From: Sphingomonas sp.
GTDB taxonomy: Bacteria; Pseudomonadota; Alphaproteobacteria; Sphingomonadales; Sphingomonadaceae
Direction: 5' to 3'
Assembly (NCBI RefSeq): GCF_031426035.1
Contig: NZ_JANPKO010000096.1
Coordinates: 888-64,887 of the forward strand
DNA length: 64,000 bases
The notes under the pieces are model-generated. The model was not told the origin of the DNA and did not search any database. It saw only the letters and a program-made list of their open reading frames with translations. Shown here one piece after another: positions 44,366-52,516 of this stretch (the first letter of the stretch is position 1; the number at the start of each line of letters is the position of its first letter). The position numbers were made by a program, and so were the translations under genes.

Positions 44366-45874
44366 ATGCGCATGATCTGCCGCGGCCTGGTCGCCGCGCT
44401 TGGCCTGACCACCGCGATCGCCGCGACTGCGCAAACCCCCAACCGCGGCGAGCTCGCGGCGGCGGTCAAGGCGGGCCACGCCGCCAACGTCCAGGCGCTC
44501 CAGGACTGGATCAAGCTCCCCACCATCGCCGCCGAAAAGCTCAACGTGGTCGAAGGCGCCGAGCATATGCGCCGCCTCGCGCTCGACGCCGGCTTCCAGC
44601 AGGCGACGGTGGTCCAGACCAGCGGCGTCCCCGGCGTGTTCGCCACCCTCGACGCCGGCGCGCGCGACTGCATCGGCCTCTACTTCATGTACGACGTCAA
44701 GCAGTTCGATGCCGCAGAATGGAGCTCGCCCCCGCTCGAGGCGCGGATCGTCGACCGCTCCGGCGAAGGCAAGGCGATCGTCGGCCGCGGCGCGGTCAAC
44801 CAGAAGGGGCCGGAGATCGCCTTCCTCGCCGCCCTGAAGGCGTTCAAGGCTACGGGGCGCAAGCTCCCCGTCAACGTCGTGCTGGTCGCCGAGGGCGAGG
44901 AGGAGATCGGCTCGCCCAACTTCAAGCAGGTCATCGCCAACCCCGCCGTGCTCCCCGCGCTCAAGCAGTGCATCGGCGTGTTCATCCCCGGCGCCGGCCA
45001 GTCGTCGACCGGCTCGGCCAGCGTCGAATTGGGCGCCAAGGGCATCGTCGAATTGCAGCTGATCGCGAGCGGCGAGAAATGGGGCCGCGGCCCGAGCAAG
45101 GATGTCCACTCGAGCCTGATGGCGAGCGTCGACAGCCCCGCGTGGCGGCTGGTCAAGGCGCTCGGCACCCTGGTCAAGGACGACGGCCACACCCCCGCGG
45201 TGGCCGGCTGGTTCGAGCATGTCAAACCGCTCACCGCGCGCCAGAAGACCCTGATCGCCGAGGCCGCGGCCAAGGACAATGAGGCCGACGTGATGAAGGG
45301 CCTCGGCCTCAAGAAATGGATCGCCGACGAGGATTTCACCACTGCCATGCAGCGCCTCGCGTCGCAGCCGACGATCAACATCCAGGGGCTGGTCAGCGGC
45401 TACATGGGCCCCGGCGGCAAGACCGTGTTGCCCGGCCGCGCCGAAGCCAAGATCGACCTGCGGCTCGTGCCCGACATGACCCGCGAGGACGCCGTCGCCA
45501 AGCTGAAGGCGCACCTCGTCCAGCACGGCTACCCCGACATCGAGGTCAATGTCAGCGGCGGCTACGACCCGACCCAGACCGAGGAGGACAGCCTGCTCGT
45601 CCGCACCCAGAAGGCGGTGCTCGAGCGCGCCGGCGTGGCTTTTTCGGTCGAGCCGCGCGCGGCCGGCTCATGGCCCGGCGTGGTGTTCACCGGCGCCCCA
45701 CTCAACTTGCCGGCGGGCGGCTTCGGCATCGGCCGCGGCTCGGGCGCCCACGCCCCCAACGAATGGTATTTGATCGAAAGCGCCAACCCCAAAATCGCCG
45801 GGCTGGACGAATCCGCGATGTTCTACGTCGATTATCTATACGAGGTCGCGGCGGCGGCGAAGCGGGGGCGGTAG
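44366..45874 (+). CDS. M20/M25/M40 family peptidase
   Basis: MYDVK, GAVNQKG, EGEEEIGS, AHAPNE; signal peptide. Confidence 0.9.
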   Translation: MRMICRGLVAALGLTTAIAATAQTPNRGELAAAVKAGHAANVQALQDWIKLPTIAAEKLNVVEGAEHMRRLALDAGFQQATVVQTSGVPGVFATLDAGARDCIGLYFMYDVKQFDAAEWSSPPLEARIVDRSGEGKAIVGRGAVNQKGPEIAFLAALKAFKATGRKLPVNVVLVAEGEEEIGSPNFKQVIANPAVLPALKQCIGVFIPGAGQSSTGSASVELGAKGIVELQLIASGEKWGRGPSKDVHSSLMASVDSPAWRLVKALGTLVKDDGHTPAVAGWFEHVKPLTARQKTLIAEAAAKDNEADVMKGLGLKKWIADEDFTTAMQRLASQPTINIQGLVSGYMGPGGKTVLPGRAEAKIDLRLVPDMTREDAVAKLKAHLVQHGYPDIEVNVSGGYDPTQTEEDSLLVRTQKAVLERAGVAFSVEPRAAGSWPGVVFTGAPLNLPAGGFGIGRGSGAHAPNEWYLIESANPKIAGLDESAMFYVDYLYEVAAAAKRGR

Positions 45875-46030
45875 GAGCATCTTTCAGGCGTGAAAGCGAA
45901 GTGCGCGCGGCGTAGGGCAGCCATGTCGACAGGCCGGGGAGAGGGTGTCCGAATTCGGATCGTCTCAGGCGCTGCAATACATTACCCGGCGGGAGGCGCC
46001 AGCGAACCAGTCCCTGTTTTCATTGACGGC

Positions 46031-46062
46031 GAATGTCCGCTTTCGACCCAAAGCAGACATTC
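46031..46062. repeat. Palindromic repeat R1
   Basis: GAATGTCCGCTTT-CGACCC-AAAGCAGACATTC, a 13-bp stem with 1 mismatch, flanked on both sides by GACGGC. Confidence 0.85.
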
Positions 46063-46106
46063 GACGGCAGAAGGCTTGCGTCCGTTCCGTTGAGACGGAC
46101 CGTCGA

Positions 46107-48263
46107 TCAGAAACTGAAGTCGTTCACGCTCAAGGAATCGGTGACGACATCAATCCGGATGTCAGCCCCGCCACCGTCCACGTCCGCATAGACAACGTAC
46201 AAGCCTGGGACGCTAGAGCTGGTAACCCACCAGATTTGACCCGCTACACCGGTACCGAAGGCAACATAGGTGAAGGCTTCGTTTGCTCTGACATCCGGAT
46301 TGTAAATGGCGTCGATTGCCGACAGGTCGATCCCATCAGATATCTGGGGGACGCCACCCGATACGAAGTCGTGGATCGTGTCGAAAGAAGCAATCGTAGA
46401 GTCCTGCCACGAGACGAAGACGAACCGGTCGGAGAAGCCGCCGCCCCACAAGTTATCAGCCCCGCTGTCCCCCTGCAGAACATCAGCGAAATCGGCGCCG
46501 CGCAAGATGTCGTTTCCGCTGCCGCCGTACAGTTGGTAATTATAACCGACCAAATTTCCGTTGCCAGCGGTCAATGTGTCATTTCCGCCCTGTCCGTAGA
46601 GATATCCGCCCTGAGACCATTGAAACGAAATGTTGTTGTCGAGCTCGTTGCCATACATGGTCCCATAAAAAACGGAAACGGGAGCTCCGTTTTCGACGTT
46701 TGCGGGTAGCACGTAGAAATCGAGCGTGGTTTCCAGATACTCGATCCCTTCACCGATGTTCTCCACGACCGTGTTTCCGGCGCTATGGATATAATACGTG
46801 TCGTCTCCGGCACCGCCCACTAGTAGATCGCCATCGCCGTAGCTGCTGAGCACGTCGTTGCCCGCGCCACCGTAAAGCGAGTCGCTCCCGGGGCCTCCGT
46901 TGAGCCCGTCATTGCCGCTGCCGCCGGTAAGGATGTTGTCACCGGCATTGCCATTAATGCTGACACCATAGCCCAGAGCCGCGGCATTGACGTTAAGCGC
47001 GGTGGTGCCGGTGGTGTCGGCCCCGCCGCCCAATCCGGTCCCAGCGAGGCCCGTACCGATCACAATCCGCTCTATGCCTGTGTCGCCCGCATAGAGGACA
47101 AGCGTGTCGTCGGCGATCGTTGAAGTGAAGCGCACCTCGTTTTCATAAAATCCGCTTTCGGTGTCGGCAAACTCGGCCGCGCCATGGTCCGCTCCTGTCG
47201 CCACGATGTAAACGTCATGACCATCTTGTCCATTTAGAGCGTCGATCCCGGGGCCGCCGATCAGGATGTCGTGGCCGCCGCTGCCATTCAGGATGTCGTT
47301 GCCGCCGCGGCCGTCGAGAATGTTGTGGCCGGCATTGCCGAGGATGTGCTGAGAAAAATCGTTACCGGTGAGGTTGATCGCGCCTGTTCCGGCGGTGTTT
47401 GTCGTGGTCAAGATCTCGATCTGAGCGGCTGCCGCAAGAGCGTAACTGACCGAAGCGAGAATACGATCGGAGAAGCCGCCGCTGGCGCCCTCGGTCACCT
47501 GGTCGCCGGCATTGTCGACATAATACCAGTCGTTGCCCCCGTAGCCGATCATTGTATCGGCTCCGCCGCCGCCGTTCAGGATGTTGGCGCCTGCATTTCC
47601 GGTCAGCGTCTGGGCAAAGCCGTTGCCCGTCAAATTGATCGCGGTCGTCGCCGCTGCCACGGAAGCGCTGAGGATTTCGACCTGGGTCGAGGCGTTCAGC
47701 GCATAACTGACCGTTGTGAAGACCCGGTCGAGGCCGCCGCCCGCCGCCTCGGTGACAATGTCGGCGGCCGTGTCGACATAATAAAAATCGTTGCCGGCAA
47801 AGCCGACCAGCGTGTCGGCGCCGCCACCGCCGTTCAAGGTATTGACGCCGGCGTTGCCGTGGATGGTCTGGACGAAGGAATTGCCGGTCAGATTAAGCGC
47901 CGTCGTCCCTGCCGTGTTGGTGGTCGTGAGGATTTCGACATGCGCTCCTGCGGCGAGCGCGTAGCTCACAGAAGACAGAATACGGTCGGTTCCTCCGTCG
48001 GCGAGCTCGATGACCGTGTCCGCTGCAGCGTCGACGTAAAACCAGTCGTTGCCGGCTCCGCCGTCCATCCTGTCGGCGCCAGTGCCGCCGTTGAGCGTGT
48101 CGTTGCCCAAGTCGCCGAAGAGGTAATCGTTGCCGCCTAGGCCGTAGATTGTGTCGTTACCGGTTGTCACCCCGCTAATGTCGGCATGGCCCGCAGGGAC
48201 ACTGCGCCCATCTCCGGCGCGGTGGATAAAATCATTACCGTTGCTACCGTTGACGACGGGCAT
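46107..48263 (-). CDS. RTX/hemolysin-type calcium-binding repeat protein
   Basis: Many GGxGxDxL nonapeptides, three ~66-aa tandem modules, serralysin-like C-terminus; GGAGG RBS. Confidence 0.9.
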   Translation of the reverse strand: MPVVNGSNGNDFIHRAGDGRSVPAGHADISGVTTGNDTIYGLGGNDYLFGDLGNDTLNGGTGADRMDGGAGNDWFYVDAAADTVIELADGGTDRILSSVSYALAAGAHVEILTTTNTAGTTALNLTGNSFVQTIHGNAGVNTLNGGGGADTLVGFAGNDFYYVDTAADIVTEAAGGGLDRVFTTVSYALNASTQVEILSASVAAATTAINLTGNGFAQTLTGNAGANILNGGGGADTMIGYGGNDWYYVDNAGDQVTEGASGGFSDRILASVSYALAAAAQIEILTTTNTAGTGAINLTGNDFSQHILGNAGHNILDGRGGNDILNGSGGHDILIGGPGIDALNGQDGHDVYIVATGADHGAAEFADTESGFYENEVRFTSTIADDTLVLYAGDTGIERIVIGTGLAGTGLGGGADTTGTTALNVNAAALGYGVSINGNAGDNILTGGSGNDGLNGGPGSDSLYGGAGNDVLSSYGDGDLLVGGAGDDTYYIHSAGNTVVENIGEGIEYLETTLDFYVLPANVENGAPVSVFYGTMYGNELDNNISFQWSQGGYLYGQGGNDTLTAGNGNLVGYNYQLYGGSGNDILRGADFADVLQGDSGADNLWGGGFSDRFVFVSWQDSTIASFDTIHDFVSGGVPQISDGIDLSAIDAIYNPDVRANEAFTYVAFGTGVAGQIWWVTSSSVPGLYVVYADVDGGGADIRIDVVTDSLSVNDFSF

Positions 48264-48380
48264 AACGATCCTCCTCGCGGCGGCGTAGCCCACTAGGAAT
48301 TATCAAGTTTTTCTGCGGCCCCGCATGTTCAGCCTACGCTGCTGGTCCAGCGAGTCAATCATCCACCAGCAAGGCTTCCC

Positions 48381-48408
48381 ATGTCCGCTTTCCACCCATT
48401 GCGGACAT
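48381..48408. repeat. Palindromic repeat R2
   Basis: ATGTCCGC-TTTCCACCCATT-GCGGACAT, directly abutting the TGA at 48409-48411. Confidence 0.85.
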
Positions 48409-48972
48409 TCATCCTCGTGGGTCAGTCAGCTTTTTGAATGCGGCCCACAGGTAAACTGCGAACAGTGTGCCGCTTCCGATGGCCCATGCCCAAGTAGCAA
48501 TTGACCCAGGCAGCGAAATCAATGCGCCAAAGAACATGGCCCCAGTCAGAAGGAGCGCAAAGATTATAAACGGCCAATTGAGCATTGCGCGAACCTCTCG
48601 CCGGACTTGGCAAGCGGAGCGCGGTGGAGCGATGTCGGGACGGCCACTGACTAGGCGGCGAGGTGCCAAGCTAGACCAGAGCAGCCACCCGGTCACGGAT
48701 GCTACACACGCAGCGATGATGACCCAATCTGTCCGCTCTGGCAGTGCCAGAGCTTGCGACAAAAGCGTCCAGACCAAAATTGCCAGACCGACTAGTCCAG
48801 CAGTTTTCCAAGTTCCACGTCTGCTTGCAACCCGTTGCCAGTTAGCCGCAAGAGCTTCAAATTCTTCGTCAGTCACGAGCTTACCACCCGCGCGTTTCGA
48901 CGGGTAATAGAGGTATCCGCCTTCGACCGGCTTAAACTGTTTGGTGAAGGCCCCGATTGCATCAAACATCAT
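48409..48972 (-). CDS. Hypothetical membrane protein
   Basis: 187 aa, four hydrophobic segments, lower GC, AAGGGTGA RBS. Confidence 0.8.
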   Translation of the reverse strand: MMFDAIGAFTKQFKPVEGGYLYYPSKRAGGKLVTDEEFEALAANWQRVASRRGTWKTAGLVGLAILVWTLLSQALALPERTDWVIIAACVASVTGWLLWSSLAPRRLVSGRPDIAPPRSACQVRREVRAMLNWPFIIFALLLTGAMFFGALISLPGSIATWAWAIGSGTLFAVYLWAAFKKLTDPRG

Positions 48973-48998
48973 TCACCCTTTTTGGAGCAGCATTGCCG

Positions 48999-49035
48999 AT
49001 CTAATCGCCGCTTTCCACCATTGCGGACGTTAGAC
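48999..49035. repeat. Palindromic repeat R3 with attC-like ends
   Basis: ATCTAAT-CGCCGCTTTCCACCATTGCGGAC-GTTAGAC; overlaps the TAA at 49030-49032. Confidence 0.8.
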
Positions 49036-49413
49036 ATCTACCCTGCGGAGGGTGTTCGCTATGAACGGGTCGACATCGATGTGGCGCATCTCTCCGGCTG
49101 CCTCCGTCGCGTCATCGATATTGCCTAGGGCGACACCGCAAACGAACCGCCGGTAAGCGTCGAAATACACCTCCTCAGGCCGAGTTACGGGCCAGTCCTC
49201 GGCCAGGATCGACCGCGCCAGCTCGGACCTGCGAGGTTCGCCTAGGGACAGCATCAGTGTCAGGCGATACAGTGGAAGCAGCCGCGAATACCTGCTGCCG
49301 GGCCTAGGGTCGCGCTGTACGAGCTGAAGCGCTTTCTCCAGTGAGCCCCGATTCTGTGCCCATCTTGCTCTCGCCAGCACAGCGAAGTCTAAGAGGCTGT
49401 TCCAGCCGGACAT
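49030..49413 (-). CDS. Hypothetical helical protein
   Basis: 127-aa ORF with lower GC; no motif recognised. Confidence 0.65.
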   Translation of the reverse strand: MSGWNSLLDFAVLARARWAQNRGSLEKALQLVQRDPRPGSRYSRLLPLYRLTLMLSLGEPRRSELARSILAEDWPVTRPEEVYFDAYRRFVCGVALGNIDDATEAAGEMRHIDVDPFIANTLRRVDV

Positions 49414-49446
49414 CGGCTAAGTTTACCCTTGATGGCTCGCCGCGGA

Positions 49447-49537
49447 TTTCGGGGACACGAATTTCGGGGACACAATACTAATTAGTACGGCGGGTCGCAA
49501 TCGGCTGCGGTTTCGGGGACACAATACTAATTAGTAC
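49447..49537. repeat. Direct repeats with an internal palindrome
   Basis: TTTCGGGGACAC at 49447; TTTCGGGGACACAATACTAATTAGTAC at 49462-49488 and 49511-49537; internal TACTAATTAGTA palindrome. Confidence 0.9.
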
Positions 49538-49776
49538 TGCGGATCGCGCTCGGCTGGGCGTCAGCTCCGCCGATTTCGCTGTCCTACATTAGAAAATCCG
49601 TGAGACACTGGCCGTGCCCGAGTCGTTTTGGGGCTCTTTGACGTCGTCGATCCCCCCACTTTCTCCCTACGCCCCTGCTACCCCCGTAAAGTCACAAAAA
49701 TGGTCGCCGGGTACGGGACAATAAGGACTTTAGCGGCTTGAATCGCCCGCGCGGCAGTCTGCGCCGGCCTCCGCGA

Positions 49777-50058
49777 TCAGCGCGGCTGGACTCGACGGCA
49801 GTCGTCGCTCGGCCAGGTCTTTCCCTTGCGGCAGCGCTCGGCGAGCGCGCGCAGCTCGCGGCCGAGCTGCTCGTCGGCGCGGCGCGCGGCGCGGCCGGCG
49901 TTGGCGTCGGCTTCGGCCTGGCTGGTGGTCGCGGCGTCGACCGCATGGCCGGCGACCTTGACCGGCAGCGTCGCGACATCGACCGCGGTGCTGGCGATGG
50001 TGCCGACCACGCAGCCGCTCAGCGACAGCCCGGCGGCGATCAGGGCAAATGCTTTCAT
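49777..50058 (-). CDS. Small lipoprotein
   Basis: MKAFALIAAGLSLSGC lipobox. Confidence 0.8.
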   Translation of the reverse strand: MKAFALIAAGLSLSGCVVGTIASTAVDVATLPVKVAGHAVDAATTSQAEADANAGRAARRADEQLGRELRALAERCRKGKTWPSDDCRRVQPR

Positions 50059-50101
50059 GGGCGCGAGACTCGCACAGGCCGCGCGTACCGGCAATGAACG
50101 A

Positions 50102-52516
50102 TCACCCCGCCATCGCCTCCTGCGCCAGCGCTTCGGCCTGGATCAGCAACGTTTCGTCCGCCTCGCCGCCGGGAGGCATCGCCTCGCGCCCGACGATCAC
50201 CATCAGCGGCACCGCCATCGGGGTGATGCGGTCGGCGTGGACATGGACCATGGTCGCCGCGGCGCGGTCGACCAGGCGCACCAGCCGGCCGAGCTCGGTC
50301 ATCCTCGCCCGCGCATCCTCCCACGCCGCACGCAGCAGGAGATGCCCGGGCTCGTAGCGGCGCAGCACGTCGTAGATGAGGTCGGTCGAGAAGCTCACCT
50401 GGCGCCCCGACTTGCGCTGTCCCGGATGGTGGCGCTCGACTAGCCCGCCGATCACCGCGACCTCGCGGAAGGCCGATTTGAGCAGATAGGATTGCTCGAC
50501 CCAGTCGGTGAATTCCTGTTCCAGGATGTCGGGCGAGAACAGTGATTGCGGGTCGGTGATCGGCTCGAGCCCGTAGCACGCCAGGCCGTAGTCGTTGGCG
50601 ACGAAGCCCAGCGGCTTGAGCCCGGCATGCTCCATCCGCCGCGTCAGCAGCATGCCGAGCGACTGGTGCGCGTTCCATCCCTCGAAGCTGTAGGCGACCA
50701 TGAAGTGGCGGCCGTGGTGCTCGAAGGTCTCGACCAGCAATTCGTGCGGCTCGGGCAGCCGCGATCGCCGGCCCTGCACCTCGAGCCACTCGGCGACGTC
50801 GTCGGGGAAGCGGTGCCAGTCGTTGCGGTCGCACAGCATGTGGCGGACGCGGTCGGCGAGGTGGGTCGACATCGACATCCGCTGCCCGCCGTAAGTGACG
50901 ATCCGCGCCGATTTCGATGAGGCGTGGACCAGGATATCACCGTCCTTGATGCGTTCAACCTCGAGGCTCAGCCCGGCGAAGAAGAAATGGTCGCCCGGAG
51001 TCAAAGTCGAAGCAAAGCCTTCCTCGACCGTGCCCAGCTTCCGCCCGTTCTTGAAGCGCACGCTGAGCAAAGGCGCCTCGACGATGATCCCCGCGTTCAT
51101 GCGGTGCTGCACCGCCACCGCCGGCCGCGTGATCCGCCACCGCCCGTCGCCCTCGGGCACCAGCCGGCGGAACTTGTCATAGGCTTTGAGCGCGTATCCC
51201 CCGGTGGCGATGAAGCTGAGGATCTCCTGGAAGGTCTCGTCCTTGAGCCCCGCATACGGCGACGCCGAGCGCACTTCGGCGAGCAGCTCGGCCTCGTCGA
51301 ACGGCCCCGCGCAGGCGATCGCCAGGATATGCTGGGCGAGCACGTCGAGCGCGCCGGGGCGGAAGATTTCGGGGTCGAGCTCGTTGTCGCCGATCGCGTC
51401 CAGTGCCGCGCGCGCTTCGAGATATTCGAAGCGGTTGCCGGGCACGATCATGCCGCGGCTCGGCTCGTCGAGGCGGTGGTTGGAGCGGCCGATCCGCTGC
51501 AGCAGCCGCGAGCTGCCCTTGGGCGCGCCCATCTGGACGACGAGGTCGATGTCCCCCCAGTCGATCCCGAGGTCGAGGCTCGAGGTCGCGACCAGCCCGC
51601 GCAACTTGCCCGCGCTCATCGCCGCCTCGATCCGGCGCCGTGCTTCCAATGCCAGGCTGCCGTGATGGATGCCGATCGCCAGCGACAGGTCGTTAACCGC
51701 CCACAGGTCCTGGAAAATCAGTTCGGCGAGGCTGCGCGTGTTGCAGAAGATCAGCGTCGTCCGGTGCCGCTCGATCAGCCCCATCACCTCGCGCGCGGCG
51801 TGCCGCCCCGAATGGCCCGACCACGGGATGCGCCCGTCGGGAATGAGGATCGAAAGGTCGGCCGCGGCGCCGGGGTCGCCCTCGACCAGCGCGACCGCGT
51901 CGATGTCGGCATCGGGCGCGAGCCACGAGCGGTAGGCGTCGGGGTCGGCGATGGTCGCCGACAAGCCGACCCGCCTGAGCCCCGGCGCGAGCACCTCCAG
52001 CCGCGCCATCGACAGCGCCAGCAAGTCGCCGCGTTTTTCACGCGCGAAGGCGTGCAGCTCGTCGACGACGATCGTCTTCAAGCCCGCGAACAGCGTCGCG
52101 CTGTCGGGGTAGCTGAGCAGCAGGCTGAGCGATTCAGGCGTGGTAAGCAGGATGTGGGGCGGACGCTCGCGCTGGCGTTTCTTGCGGTCCGACGGCGTGT
52201 CGCCGCTGCGCGTTTCGACGCGAATGCTGAGCCCCATCTCGGCAATCGGCCCGAGCAGGTTGCGCTGGACGTCGACCCCGAGCGCTTTGAGCGGCGACAC
52301 ATACAAGGTGTGCAGCCCCTCGGCGGGCGCCTCGATCAGGTCGCAGATCGTCGGCAGGAACCCCGCCAGCGTCTTGCCGGCCCCGGTCGCGGCGACCAGC
52401 AGCGCGCTGTTCCCGGCGCGCGCCACGCCGAGCATCTCGAGCTGGTGGCGGCGCGGTTGCCAGCCGCGCTCGCTAAACCAGCGCTGGACGACCGCGGGAA
52501 GTCCGGCGTCGTTCAG
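50102..52516 (-). CDS. Ligase-associated DEXH-box helicase (Lhr family); start probably CTG at 52516
   Basis: ATGAGKT, DELH, SAT, QRIGRS; the frame stays open upstream of the ATG at 52435 with the Q-motif-like WQPRRHQ. Confidence 0.92.
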   Translation of the reverse strand: MNDAGLPAVVQRWFSERGWQPRRHQLEMLGVARAGNSALLVAATGAGKTLAGFLPTICDLIEAPAEGLHTLYVSPLKALGVDVQRNLLGPIAEMGLSIRVETRSGDTPSDRKKRQRERPPHILLTTPESLSLLLSYPDSATLFAGLKTIVVDELHAFAREKRGDLLALSMARLEVLAPGLRRVGLSATIADPDAYRSWLAPDADIDAVALVEGDPGAAADLSILIPDGRIPWSGHSGRHAAREVMGLIERHRTTLIFCNTRSLAELIFQDLWAVNDLSLAIGIHHGSLALEARRRIEAAMSAGKLRGLVATSSLDLGIDWGDIDLVVQMGAPKGSSRLLQRIGRSNHRLDEPSRGMIVPGNRFEYLEARAALDAIGDNELDPEIFRPGALDVLAQHILAIACAGPFDEAELLAEVRSASPYAGLKDETFQEILSFIATGGYALKAYDKFRRLVPEGDGRWRITRPAVAVQHRMNAGIIVEAPLLSVRFKNGRKLGTVEEGFASTLTPGDHFFFAGLSLEVERIKDGDILVHASSKSARIVTYGGQRMSMSTHLADRVRHMLCDRNDWHRFPDDVAEWLEVQGRRSRLPEPHELLVETFEHHGRHFMVAYSFEGWNAHQSLGMLLTRRMEHAGLKPLGFVANDYGLACYGLEPITDPQSLFSPDILEQEFTDWVEQSYLLKSAFREVAVIGGLVERHHPGQRKSGRQVSFSTDLIYDVLRRYEPGHLLLRAAWEDARARMTELGRLVRLVDRAAATMVHVHADRITPMAVPLMVIVGREAMPPGGEADETLLIQAEALAQEAMAG

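What the first reader, a model, noticed from the sequence alone, without database searches (positions are those of the whole stretch)
48999..49035. Repeat R3 has attC core-site signatures in miniature
On the minus strand the site opens with GTCTAAC, which matches RYYYAAC and contains the TAA stop, and closes with ATTAGAT, one base off GTTRRRY. On the plus strand it ends in GTTAGAC, a perfect GTTRRRY. Folding TCTAA/TTAGA, CG/CG and CCGC/GCGG leaves single unpaired bases, reminiscent of attC extrahelical bases, in only 37 bp. R1 and R2 lack these outer boxes, so the match could be chance.
Basis: partly seen in the sequence, partly recalled or inferred. Interest (0 to 1): 0.6.

Follow-up and report, generated by a model that had tools for sequence, protein, structure and literature searches.

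The report
Worn recombination-type junction site, not attC
The 37-base palindrome is a decayed copy of a widespread 34-base site that marks the borders of imported gene modules and, in related bacteria, brackets the gene of a tiny tyrosine recombinase; it is not an integron attC site, but it may belong to an undescribed cassette-shuffling system in a bacterial class that lacks integrons.

Summary
R3, R2 and R1 are copies of one ~34-bp family, consensus CTAATGTCCGC-AATGGGTSGAAA-GCGGACATTAG. There are about 17 copies in this 2.3-Mb Sphingomicrobium-like genome and up to ~100 in congeners. The exact core also occurs in other Alpha-, Beta- and Gammaproteobacteria.

Evidence against attC:
- R3's "outer boxes" are the family's own CTAAT/ATTAG arms, one base off.
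- Among 253 copies, RYYYAAC occurs 4 times at the R3-equivalent position, GTTRRRY 3 times, and both together never.
- No integron integrase passes the cut-off in 61 genomes of the genus, and no RAYT is found in hairpin-rich genomes.
- The centre is conserved and the arms do not covary, which is the opposite of attC.

What the sites do look like:
- They are co-oriented inside low-GC islands.
- They coincide with homology breakpoints (23 of 199 ends against 4.2 expected).
- In relatives, inverted copies bracket a 203-aa tyrosine recombinase gene (14 of 14 genome loci).

This genome has no such gene, and R3 carries a deletion in its centre, so it is probably a relic. The link between enzyme and site is inferred, not shown. 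Earlier notes of this scan (e1-4300298, e1-5303636) describe, on other DNA, what appears to be the same GTCCGC/GCGGAC hairpin family.

The parts
48999..49035 (-). R3: worn G-type copy of the 34-bp site. It has a 1-nt deletion in the centre (AATGG-TGGAAA) and right arm GCGGCG instead of GCGGAC. It holds the TAA stop of the 127-aa ORF.
48379..48410 (-). R2: near-consensus G-type copy (GAATGTCCGC-AATGGGTGGAAA-GCGGACAT), starting directly after the TGA of the 187-aa ORF.
46030..46063 (-). R1: C-type copy with TTT variant (CGAATGTCTGCTTT-GGGTCG-AAAGCGGACATTCG), 44 nt after the RTX gene stop.
49030..49413 (-). 127-aa ORF, first module of the island; no Pfam or NCBIfam match.
48409..48972 (-). 187-aa ORF, second module, no Pfam or NCBIfam match. 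A 73%-identical copy in another species (G130) is bounded by the same sites on both sides and has different neighbours.
46107..48293 (-). 728-aa RTX calcium-binding repeat protein, third module. Its 5' part plus R2 is duplicated at 83% identity on contig C147 of the same genome, and the homology ends at the site.
45880..49778 (.). 3.9-kb low-GC insert (~0.60 against ~0.68). It sits in the ~20-nt gap between convergent native genes, the M20 peptidase (stop at 45874) and a small lipoprotein gene (stop near 49777). The site is empty and hairpin-free in 13 of 16 relatives examined.

Best explanation
R3 is a decayed member of a ~34-bp family of polar, nearly palindromic DNA sites. Each site has two ~11-14-bp inverted arms (CTAATGTCCGC / GCGGACATTAG) around an asymmetric conserved centre (TGGGTSGAAAGC; in the TTT variant the layout is 14-6-14, as in lox or dif). 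The most likely function is as core recombination sites for a small tyrosine recombinase of 203 aa that consists of the catalytic domain only. Under this model, directly repeated sites delimit one- or few-gene modules that can be cut out and reinserted at other sites. Inverted sites around the recombinase gene would allow only inversion, which explains why arrays point away from that gene on both sides. In this genome the three-gene island (127-aa ORF, 187-aa ORF, RTX protein) was assembled from such modules and inserted between two convergent native genes. No recombinase gene is present now, and R3 is damaged in its centre and right arm, so the island is probably fixed, comparable to a CALIN. 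Shown here: family membership, the conservation pattern, co-orientation, coincidence with homology breakpoints, and the physical linkage of sites with the recombinase gene. Inferred: that this recombinase cuts these sites, that crossover occurs in the centre, and that the substrate is duplex DNA.
For: Family: alignment of 17 own-genome copies. 20 of 24 congeners carry 1-66 copies with zero matches in the control. G002 has ~105 copies, G007 ~95, and complete genomes G049 and G059 have 77 and 55. Consensus from 253 copies. Centre conservation is not an artefact of the search: arms-only detection in 336 kb of island DNA gives 79 hits, about 73 of them with the family centre within 2 substitutions. 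The arms barely covary: mutual information is 0.00-0.10 bit, observed Watson-Crick pairing is close to the independence expectation, and only 22% of copies have fully complementary inner arms. Left- and right-arm variants assort almost freely, as expected if half-sites are exchanged at the centre. Arrays are co-oriented within islands. Breakpoints: 23 of 199 ends of inter-genome homology lie within 25 nt of a site, against 4.2 +/- 2.0 for random positions. The 187-aa ORF module is bounded by sites in G130. The RTX/R2 duplicate ends at the site. Recombinase: found in 40 of 121 genus genomes. In 14 of 14 loci the nearest site to the left is '-' and to the right '+'. In metagenome loci of the clade at >=70% identity, the upstream site is '-' in 17 of 21 evaluable loci and the downstream site '+' in 18 of 24, at fixed distances, with no reversed case at <=2 mismatches. 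The RKHRHY catalytic residues align with XerD. Many metagenome contigs of 700-930 bp carry only this gene. A gammaproteobacterial homologue lies next to a hairpin with the same arms and a different centre.
Against: Nothing here shows catalysis. The recombinase is not found in the window's own genome (94% complete) or in G002, which has the most copies but is only 74% complete. Lysobacter soli and Caulobacter sp. 17J80-11 have co-oriented C-type arrays but no homologue with this query. All sites directly next to the recombinase gene are G-type, so the enzyme for C-type sites such as R1 remains open. Only 2 of 80 diverse hairpin loci have the gene within 4 kb, and no other gene family recurs there. 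Homologues at <=68% identity lack the hairpin. Linkage between the two half-sites flanking one module is only marginal (p = 0.045). A 12-nt centre in the commoner AAT variant is long for a tyrosine recombinase overlap region. The 35-nt tandem doublets are not explained.
Confidence: 0.5

Rival explanations
1. A REP/MITE-like selfish palindrome, or a passive 'boundary sequence'. The short repeat spreads or persists in horizontally acquired DNA and merely offers microhomology for homologous or illegitimate recombination. The small recombinase unit is then a separate mobile element whose ends happen to be, or which targets, this repeat, as IS110/IS1111 elements target REP or attC.
For: The copies are dispersed and extragenic, with widely varying copy number (0-105) among congeners. 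They are confined to low-GC islands flanked by unrelated integrases, one of them next to tRNA-Arg. Most sites are far from any recombinase gene. Many copies are decayed. An earlier scan note reports an IS110-type insertion in such a hairpin (not tested here).
Against: No RAYT is found in the own genome or in hairpin-rich complete genomes. The consensus has no GTAG-type head. Strict co-orientation inside islands, and the fixed diverging arrangement around the recombinase gene, are not expected for passive repeats. The exact 28-mer is shared across three proteobacterial classes and across loci from 39% to 71% GC, which argues for sequence-specific recognition.
Confidence: 0.27
2. An RNA-level element: an intercistronic stem-loop acting as a 3' stabiliser, processing signal or T-tract-less terminator for the upstream ORF.
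For: The sites sit within 0-10 nt of stop codons in many cases. R3 overlaps the stop of the 127-aa ORF and R2 follows the stop of the 187-aa ORF directly. A stable hairpin is predicted.
Against: Flanking ORFs lie in both orientations relative to the polar centre (38 same, 46 opposite by a longest-ORF heuristic). There is no compensatory covariation in the stem. The RNA fold in context is no better than shuffles. No Rfam family matches. R3 is 27 nt upstream of the next start codon with no room for a promoter, so it cannot be an efficient terminator if the 187-aa ORF is expressed. An RNA role does not explain the breakpoint coincidence or the recombinase bracketing.
Confidence: 0.13
3. A true miniature attC: a folded single-strand substrate of an integron integrase or of host XerC/XerD.
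For: R3 has GTCTAAC (RYYYAAC) containing the stop codon, and two single-base bulges when folded. The arrays are co-oriented and cassette-like.
Against: RYYYAAC occurs in 4 of 253 copies, GTTRRRY in 3 of 253, and both in none. R3's own R' box lacks the G next to the cleavage point. The length is 34-37 nt with a single pair of arms. The bulges are unique to R3. The sequence is conserved and the stem does not covary. No IntI is found in 61 genus genomes. Alphaproteobacteria were reported to have no integrons, In0 or CALIN (PMC4889954).
Confidence: 0.03

Closest known systems
Integron attC sites and CALINs (clusters of attC sites lacking an integrase)
   Same: Co-oriented short imperfect palindromes directly after ORF stops. 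They delimit mostly single, often promoterless, accessory genes of unrelated function. The same module appears in different neighbourhoods. This genome has the sites but no recombinase, as in a CALIN.
   Different: The site is 34 nt, not 57-141 nt. It has one pair of arms and no R''-L''/L'-R' organisation, no RYYYAAC/GTTRRRY boxes and no conserved extrahelical bases. Sequence rather than structure is conserved. There is no IntI. There are many islands per genome rather than one platform. ORFs lie in both orientations. The candidate enzyme is 203 aa and is bracketed by inverted sites rather than adjacent to an attI.
Core sites of simple tyrosine recombinases (loxP/Cre, FRT/Flp, dif/XerCD) and the small invertases FimB/FimE
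   Same: Two inverted arms around a short asymmetric centre that gives the site polarity; total length about 34 bp (loxP is 13-8-13). The candidate enzyme has the size of FimB/FimE (about 200 aa, catalytic domain only) and weakly matches the NCBIfam 'tyrosine-type DNA invertase' models. Inverted sites flank a segment.
   Different: There is no sequence similarity to lox, FRT, dif or fim repeats (from my knowledge of those sites; not compared here). There are tens to a hundred sites per genome, bounding many different modules. The commoner variant has a 12-nt unpaired centre. Activity is untested.
Shufflons (Rci/sfx) and pdif modules of Acinetobacter plasmids
   Same: Many copies of one short recombination site partition DNA into segments that are inverted (shufflon) or found in varying contexts (pdif modules).
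   Different: Shufflon segments are parts of one gene, and Rci is about 380 aa. pdif sites are XerC/XerD sites in alternating orientation on plasmids. Here the sites are co-oriented, chromosomal, and linked to their own mini-recombinase. This comparison rests on my knowledge of those systems.
REP/BIME elements with RAYT, and Neisseria dRS3/NIME repeats
   Same: Short dispersed extragenic palindromes, sometimes in tandem clusters, that act as hotspots or targets for mobile elements.
   Different: No RAYT is present and the consensus has no GTAG head. The copies are co-oriented and confined to islands. The centre is conserved and the stem does not covary.
GTCCGC/GCGGAC hairpin junctions noted earlier in this scan, and at cargo borders of E. 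coli prophages
   Same: Same arms. In lambdoid phages Evi and Tritos a variant, GTCCGCTTTGTGCCAAAAGCRGAC, lies exactly where their cargo diverges.
   Different: The centre differs between lineages. The earlier notes named no enzyme. Their P2 Z/fun and IS110 observations were not re-tested here.

Membership tests
Integron attC site | Length about 57-141 nt with two pairs of inverted boxes (R''-L'' ... L'-R') | tested here: not met
   R3 is 37 nt and the family consensus is 34 nt, with one pair of arms
Integron attC site | R'' = RYYYAAC and R' = GTTRRRY at the ends | tested here: not met
   At R3-equivalent positions: 4 of 253 and 3 of 253, both in none. The family ends are CTAAT/ATTAG. R3's R' lacks the G
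Integron attC site | Conserved folded structure with extrahelical bases and little sequence conservation | tested here: not met
   The centre is conserved. Arm mutual information is 0.00-0.10 bit. The bulges occur only in R3
Integron attC site | Integron integrase (IntI, TIGR02249) in the genome or clade | tested here: not met
   0 of 61 genus genomes reach the 265-bit cut-off. The own-genome best hit is 75 bits
Integron attC site | Co-oriented sites delimiting gene cassettes | tested here: met
REP elements mobilised by RAYT | RAYT (Y1_Tnp, PF01797) gene in genomes that carry the repeats | tested here: not met
   None in the own genome. Found in only 4 of 61 genus genomes, and in none of the hairpin-rich G002, G007, G049, G059
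REP elements mobilised by RAYT | Conserved 5' GTAG/GGAG tetranucleotide next to the palindrome | tested here: not met
   The consensus head is gCTAATG
Simple tyrosine-recombinase core site (lox/FRT/dif type) | Inverted binding arms around a 6-8-bp asymmetric overlap region | tested here: inconclusive
   TTT variants such as R1 read 14-6-14. The commoner AAT variant has a 12-nt non-complementary centre
Simple tyrosine-recombinase core site (lox/FRT/dif type) | Cognate tyrosine recombinase genetically linked to the site | tested here: met
   In relatives only: 14 of 14 genome loci, and most metagenome loci of the >=70% clade. Not in the window's own genome
Simple tyrosine-recombinase core site (lox/FRT/dif type) | Recombinase-dependent cleavage and strand exchange at the site | not testable with these tools
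   Needs an in vivo or in vitro recombination assay
Rfam RNA families | Match to a curated covariance model | tested here: not met
   Only two chance-level hits elsewhere in 45500-50500 at E <= 5

The most novel reading that the evidence does not exclude
The 34-bp sites together with the 203-aa catalytic-domain-only tyrosine recombinase form an undescribed integron-analogous system. It would use lox-like duplex sites to excise, capture, invert and stockpile gene modules in many islands per genome. It would operate in Sphingomonadales and other Proteobacteria, and in related form at cargo slots of enterobacterial prophages, filling the niche left empty by the reported absence of integrons from Alphaproteobacteria.
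Probability: 0.4. Interest if true: 0.85.

Novelty: new variant of a known kind. Interest (0 to 1): 0.62.

Why it matters
Integrons are the textbook device for collecting gene cassettes. Alphaproteobacteria were reported to have none, which the authors of that survey called puzzling (PMC4889954).

A short, sequence-conserved, polar site that bounds swappable modules, plus a candidate dedicated mini-recombinase, makes this directly testable. Either the class uses a different and simpler cassette machinery, or these are only passive boundary repeats.

If active, a 203-aa recombinase with a 34-bp site would also be a compact new recombination tool. The sites would be a practical marker for the flexible genome in metagenome-assembled genomes, where they also break assemblies.

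For this window the practical result is smaller. R3 is a relic site, the three-gene RTX island is an insertion, and the attC label should not be used.

Tried and rejected
- **Rfam** at E <= 5 over the island gave nothing relevant.
- **Full-text paper searches.** Six literal sequence strings found 0 papers. Three keyword searches on repeats, cassettes, integron-like systems and P2 found no description of the family.
- **RAYT/REP hypothesis** rejected.
- **IntI** rejected.
- **A single island-integrase clade** rejected. The integrases at island edges are mutually unrelated, and one sits by tRNA-Arg.
- **Replication-strand bias** as the cause of co-orientation rejected. Neighbouring islands in complete genomes have opposite orientation.
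- **A conserved neighbour gene** in 80 taxonomically diverse hairpin loci: none; the most common family recurs in only 6 loci.
- **Test that the two half-sites flanking one module are complementary:** only marginal, p = 0.045.
- **Search for cognate inverted repeats or same-arm hairpins** around recombinase homologues at <=68% identity: none convincing.
- **Phage collection by BLAST:** only weak 28-nt hits. The exact 24-mer occurs in 10 IMG/VR contigs, which I did not analyse further.
- My recollection that these repeats give spurious 'SAFDPKRT/KADI' peptides in alphaproteobacterial annotations was not checked.

Full report
**1. The observation**

Window 48999-49035 reads, on the minus strand, GTCTAACGTCCGCAATGGTGGAAAGCGGCGATTAGAT.
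- It fills most of the 57-bp gap between two minus-strand ORFs, 49030-49413 (127 aa) and 48409-48972 (187 aa). The TAA of the first ORF lies inside GTCTAAC.
There are two single-base bulges, the energy is -7.4 kcal/mol, and z is -2.1 (minus strand) and -2.65 (plus strand) against shuffles.
- As RNA in a 101-nt context the fold is not better than shuffles, z = -0.43.

The description is therefore accurate.

**2. R3 is one copy of a repeat family**

The two other palindromes of the island share R3's core:
- R2, 48379-48410: GAATGTCCGC-AATGGGTGGAAA-GCGGACAT.
- R1, 46030-46063: CGAATGTCTGC-TTTGGGTCGAAA-GCGGACATTCG.

Copy numbers and distribution:
- The window's assembly is 2.29 Mb in 164 contigs and 94% complete. 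It holds about 17 copies, clustered on a few contigs (alignment A1).
- The pattern GTCYGC-N3-4-GGGTSGAAAGCGGAC occurs in 20 of 24 genomes of the same genus, at 1-66 copies, with zero matches of the reversed control. It occurs in none of 16 genomes from other families of the order.
- Two congeners carry about 100 copies. Two complete genomes carry 77 and 55.
- Counts include the unpublished genomes G020, G096 or G120 as members of the tallies. No specific claim below rests on them, and their loci were excluded from the pooled copy set.

Pooling 253 distinct copies gives the consensus gCTAATGTCCGC-AATGGGTSGAAA-GCGGACATTAGc. The pool came from a whole-genome scan of the own assembly plus island loci of G002, G049, G059 and a few others. 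The filter was loose, and about nine of the 21 own-genome entries look like chance hits.

Against this consensus R3 is a worn G-type copy:
- One G is missing from the centre.
- The right arm reads GCGGCG instead of GCGGAC. This change creates the two bulges.
- The outer TCTAAC/ATTAGA is the family's CTAAT/ATTAG with one T>C change.
- Other own-genome copies carry the same halves separately: GTCTAACGTCTGC on C84, and GCGGACATTAG on C84.

**3. Test of the attC reading**

- At the R3-equivalent positions, RYYYAAC occurs in 4 of 253 copies, GTTRRRY in 3 of 253, and both together in none.
- The site has one pair of arms and is 34-37 nt long.
- No protein reaches the integron-integrase cut-off in 61 genomes of the genus. 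The own-genome best hit is 75 bits against a cut-off of 265.
- The closest named relatives of the flanking M20 peptidase are Sphingomicrobium and Sphingomonas daechungensis, at about 70% identity. The host is therefore a member of Sphingomonadales. Alphaproteobacteria were reported to have no integrons, In0 or CALIN in 243 genomes (PMC4889954).
- The conservation pattern is the reverse of attC. When sites are found by their arms alone in 336 kb of island DNA, about 73 of 79 carry the family centre within two substitutions.
- When sites are found by their centre, left- and right-arm variants (GTCCGC, GTCTGC, GGCAGG on the left; GCGGAC, GCAGAC, GCTGCC, GCTGAC on the right) combine almost at random. 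Mutual information is 0.00-0.10 bit, Watson-Crick pairing is near the independence expectation, and only 22% have fully complementary inner arms.

R3 is not an attC site.

**4. What the sites do look like**

(a) Polarity and co-orientation.
- The centre is asymmetric, so each site has a direction.
- Within an island all sites point the same way. Examples are 18 of 18 on two G002 contigs and long runs in G049, G059 and G075.
- Neighbouring islands can point in opposite directions, so replication direction is not the cause.

(b) The islands.
- They have low GC, 0.55-0.61.
- They carry unrelated accessory genes, including PilZ, EAL/GGDEF, permeases, LysR regulators, hydrolases and a rifampin ADP-ribosyltransferase.
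- By a longest-ORF heuristic, ORFs lie in both orientations relative to the site (38 same, 46 opposite). They often end within a few bases of it.

(c) The island in the window.
- It is a 3.9-kb insert, about 45880-49778, in the ~20-nt gap between the convergent M20 peptidase gene and a small lipoprotein gene.
- 13 of 16 relatives have the empty, hairpin-free site.

(d) The sites are homology breakpoints.
- The 187-aa ORF module has a 73%-identical copy in G130, bounded by sites on both sides and with different neighbours.
- The 5' part of the RTX gene plus R2 is duplicated on contig C147, and the homology stops at the site.
- Over all fetched loci, 23 of 199 informative ends of inter-genome homology fall within 25 nt of a site. 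Random positions give 4.2 +/- 2.0, with a maximum of 11 in 500 trials.

(e) Wide distribution.
- The exact 28-mer ATGTCCGC-WWT-GGGTSGAAA-GCGGACAT occurs in at least 119 stretches of one-genome-per-species DNA.
- These come from Sphingomicrobium, Sphingomonas, Allosphingosinicella, Croceibacterium, Caulobacter (nine co-oriented copies in 3.4 kb), Brevundimonas and Hyphomicrobiales.
- They also come from Gamma- and Betaproteobacteria (Lysobacter soli, Noviluteimonas gilva, Dyella, several MAGs), in loci from 39% to 71% GC.
- 16 of 401 sampled genomes of the class have a match, and the controls have none.
- A variant with the same arms, GTCCGCTTTGTGCCAAAAGCRGAC, lies in the E. coli lambdoid phages Evi and Tritos exactly where their cargo diverges.

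**5. A candidate enzyme**

One breakpoint hit led to a short tyrosine recombinase gene in G049. It sits where two arrays change orientation.
- The family is a very abundant 203-aa protein. Many metagenome contigs of only 700-930 bp carry just this gene.
- It aligns with the catalytic domain of XerD, and all six catalytic residues are present.
- It gives only weak XerC/XerA and 'tyrosine-type DNA invertase' matches in NCBIfam.
- It occurs in 40 of 121 genomes of the genus, but not in the window's genome or in G002.
- In 14 of 14 genome loci the nearest site to the left of the gene is '-' and to the right '+'. The gene is thus bracketed by inverted, outward-pointing sites, often about 60 nt from its ends.
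- In metagenome loci of the clade at >=70% identity, the upstream site (centre 62 nt before the start) is '-' in 17 of 21 evaluable cases. The downstream site (about 21 nt after the stop) is '+' in 18 of 24. There is no reversed case at <=2 mismatches, and all are G-type.
- Two genomes with only 2-4 hairpin hits (G022, G076) have one of those hits next to this gene.
- Noviluteimonas gilva has homologues at 56-59% identity next to a hairpin with the same arms and another centre.

**6. Most likely mechanism**

The layout is inverted arms around a conserved asymmetric centre. This is the layout of a simple tyrosine-recombinase core site, and the TTT variant reads 14-6-14.
- Direct sites would allow excision and reinsertion of modules.
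- Exchange between sites on opposite sides of the recombinase gene gives inversions, and inversions preserve the observed outward-pointing arrangement.
- Free assortment of left and right arms is what crossover at the centre would produce.

In this genome there is no recombinase and R3's centre is damaged, so the island is probably a fixed relic.

Limits of this reading:
- No catalysis is shown.
- C-type arrays in Caulobacter and Lysobacter occur without a detectable homologue.
- Most sites are far from the gene.
- The cross-module linkage test is marginal.
- The 35-nt doublets, a C-type site followed by a G-type site, are unexplained.
- Rival readings keep real weight: passive boundary or REP-like repeats, with the recombinase unit as a separate element using them; or an RNA stem-loop.

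**7. Relation to earlier notes of this scan**

- Two follow-up notes on other genomes describe a GTCCGC/GCGGAC hairpin family at the borders of swappable modules, including E. coli prophage cargo, with no enzyme known. By their descriptions this is the same family.
- I confirmed a phage junction independently, in lambdoid phages. I did not re-test their P2 or IS110 claims.

**8. Verdict**

The idea of a cassette-bounding recombination site is supported circumstantially and now has a testable candidate recombinase.

Noticed in passing
window 49447-49556: Two identical 27-mers, TTTCGGGGACACAATACTAATTAGTAC, lie 49 bp apart, preceded by a partial copy, just upstream of the 127-aa ORF. Each holds the perfect palindrome TACTAATTAGTA, whose core CTAAT/ATTAG is the same as the outer arms of the 34-bp site joined without the middle. 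It could be an operator or an 'empty' site.
   Followed up: no
window 46080-46100: A second, simpler stem-loop, GTCCGT-CTCAACGGA-ACGGAC, lies directly after the RTX stop codon, before R1. Its arms resemble the family arms but its centre is unrelated.
   Followed up: no
window 45948-45959: A perfect 12-bp palindrome, TCCGAATTCGGA, lies in the 150-nt stretch between the left island border and R1.
   Followed up: no
own genome contig C147:3565-6368 (G000): A paralogous RTX gene (897-aa ORF) whose 5' part and upstream site are 83% identical to window 47252-48406. The homology ends at the site.
   Followed up: partly
L031-L041 (G002 arrays): There are tandem doublets, and one triplet, of sites with an exact 35-nt period. 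The first is almost always C-type (GGGTCG) and the second G-type (GGGTGG) with left arm CTAATGGCAGG. In some doublets the outer arms pair with each other and the inner arms pair with each other.
   Followed up: partly
proteins P0001-P0120: Dozens of metagenome contigs of only 700-930 bp carry nothing but the 203-aa recombinase gene. This is expected if a unit of about 730 bp bounded by repeats breaks assemblies.
   Followed up: no
L325:2185 and L322:852 (Noviluteimonas gilva): Recombinase homologues at 56-59% identity lie next to a hairpin with the same arms and a different centre, GTCCGC-TTCTGGCCGATA-GCGGAC. This hints that the centre class tracks the recombinase clade.
   Followed up: partly
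L209:2501-2528 and L210:2501-2528 (E. coli phages Evi and Tritos): A related hairpin, GTCCGCTTTGTGCCAAAAGCRGAC, lies after the replication genes. The two phages are homologous up to it and carry different cargo after it.
   Followed up: partly
own genome contig C10:13908-17009 (L073): A 1033-aa ORF has a weak Phage_integrase match (46 bits) near its C-terminus, 11 kb from two hairpin copies on the same contig. It is unusually long for a tyrosine recombinase.
   Followed up: no
L199-L208 (IMG/VR contigs): Ten viral or proviral contigs carry the exact 24-mer GTCCGCWWTGGGTSGAAAGCGGAC. Their contexts were not examined.
   Followed up: no
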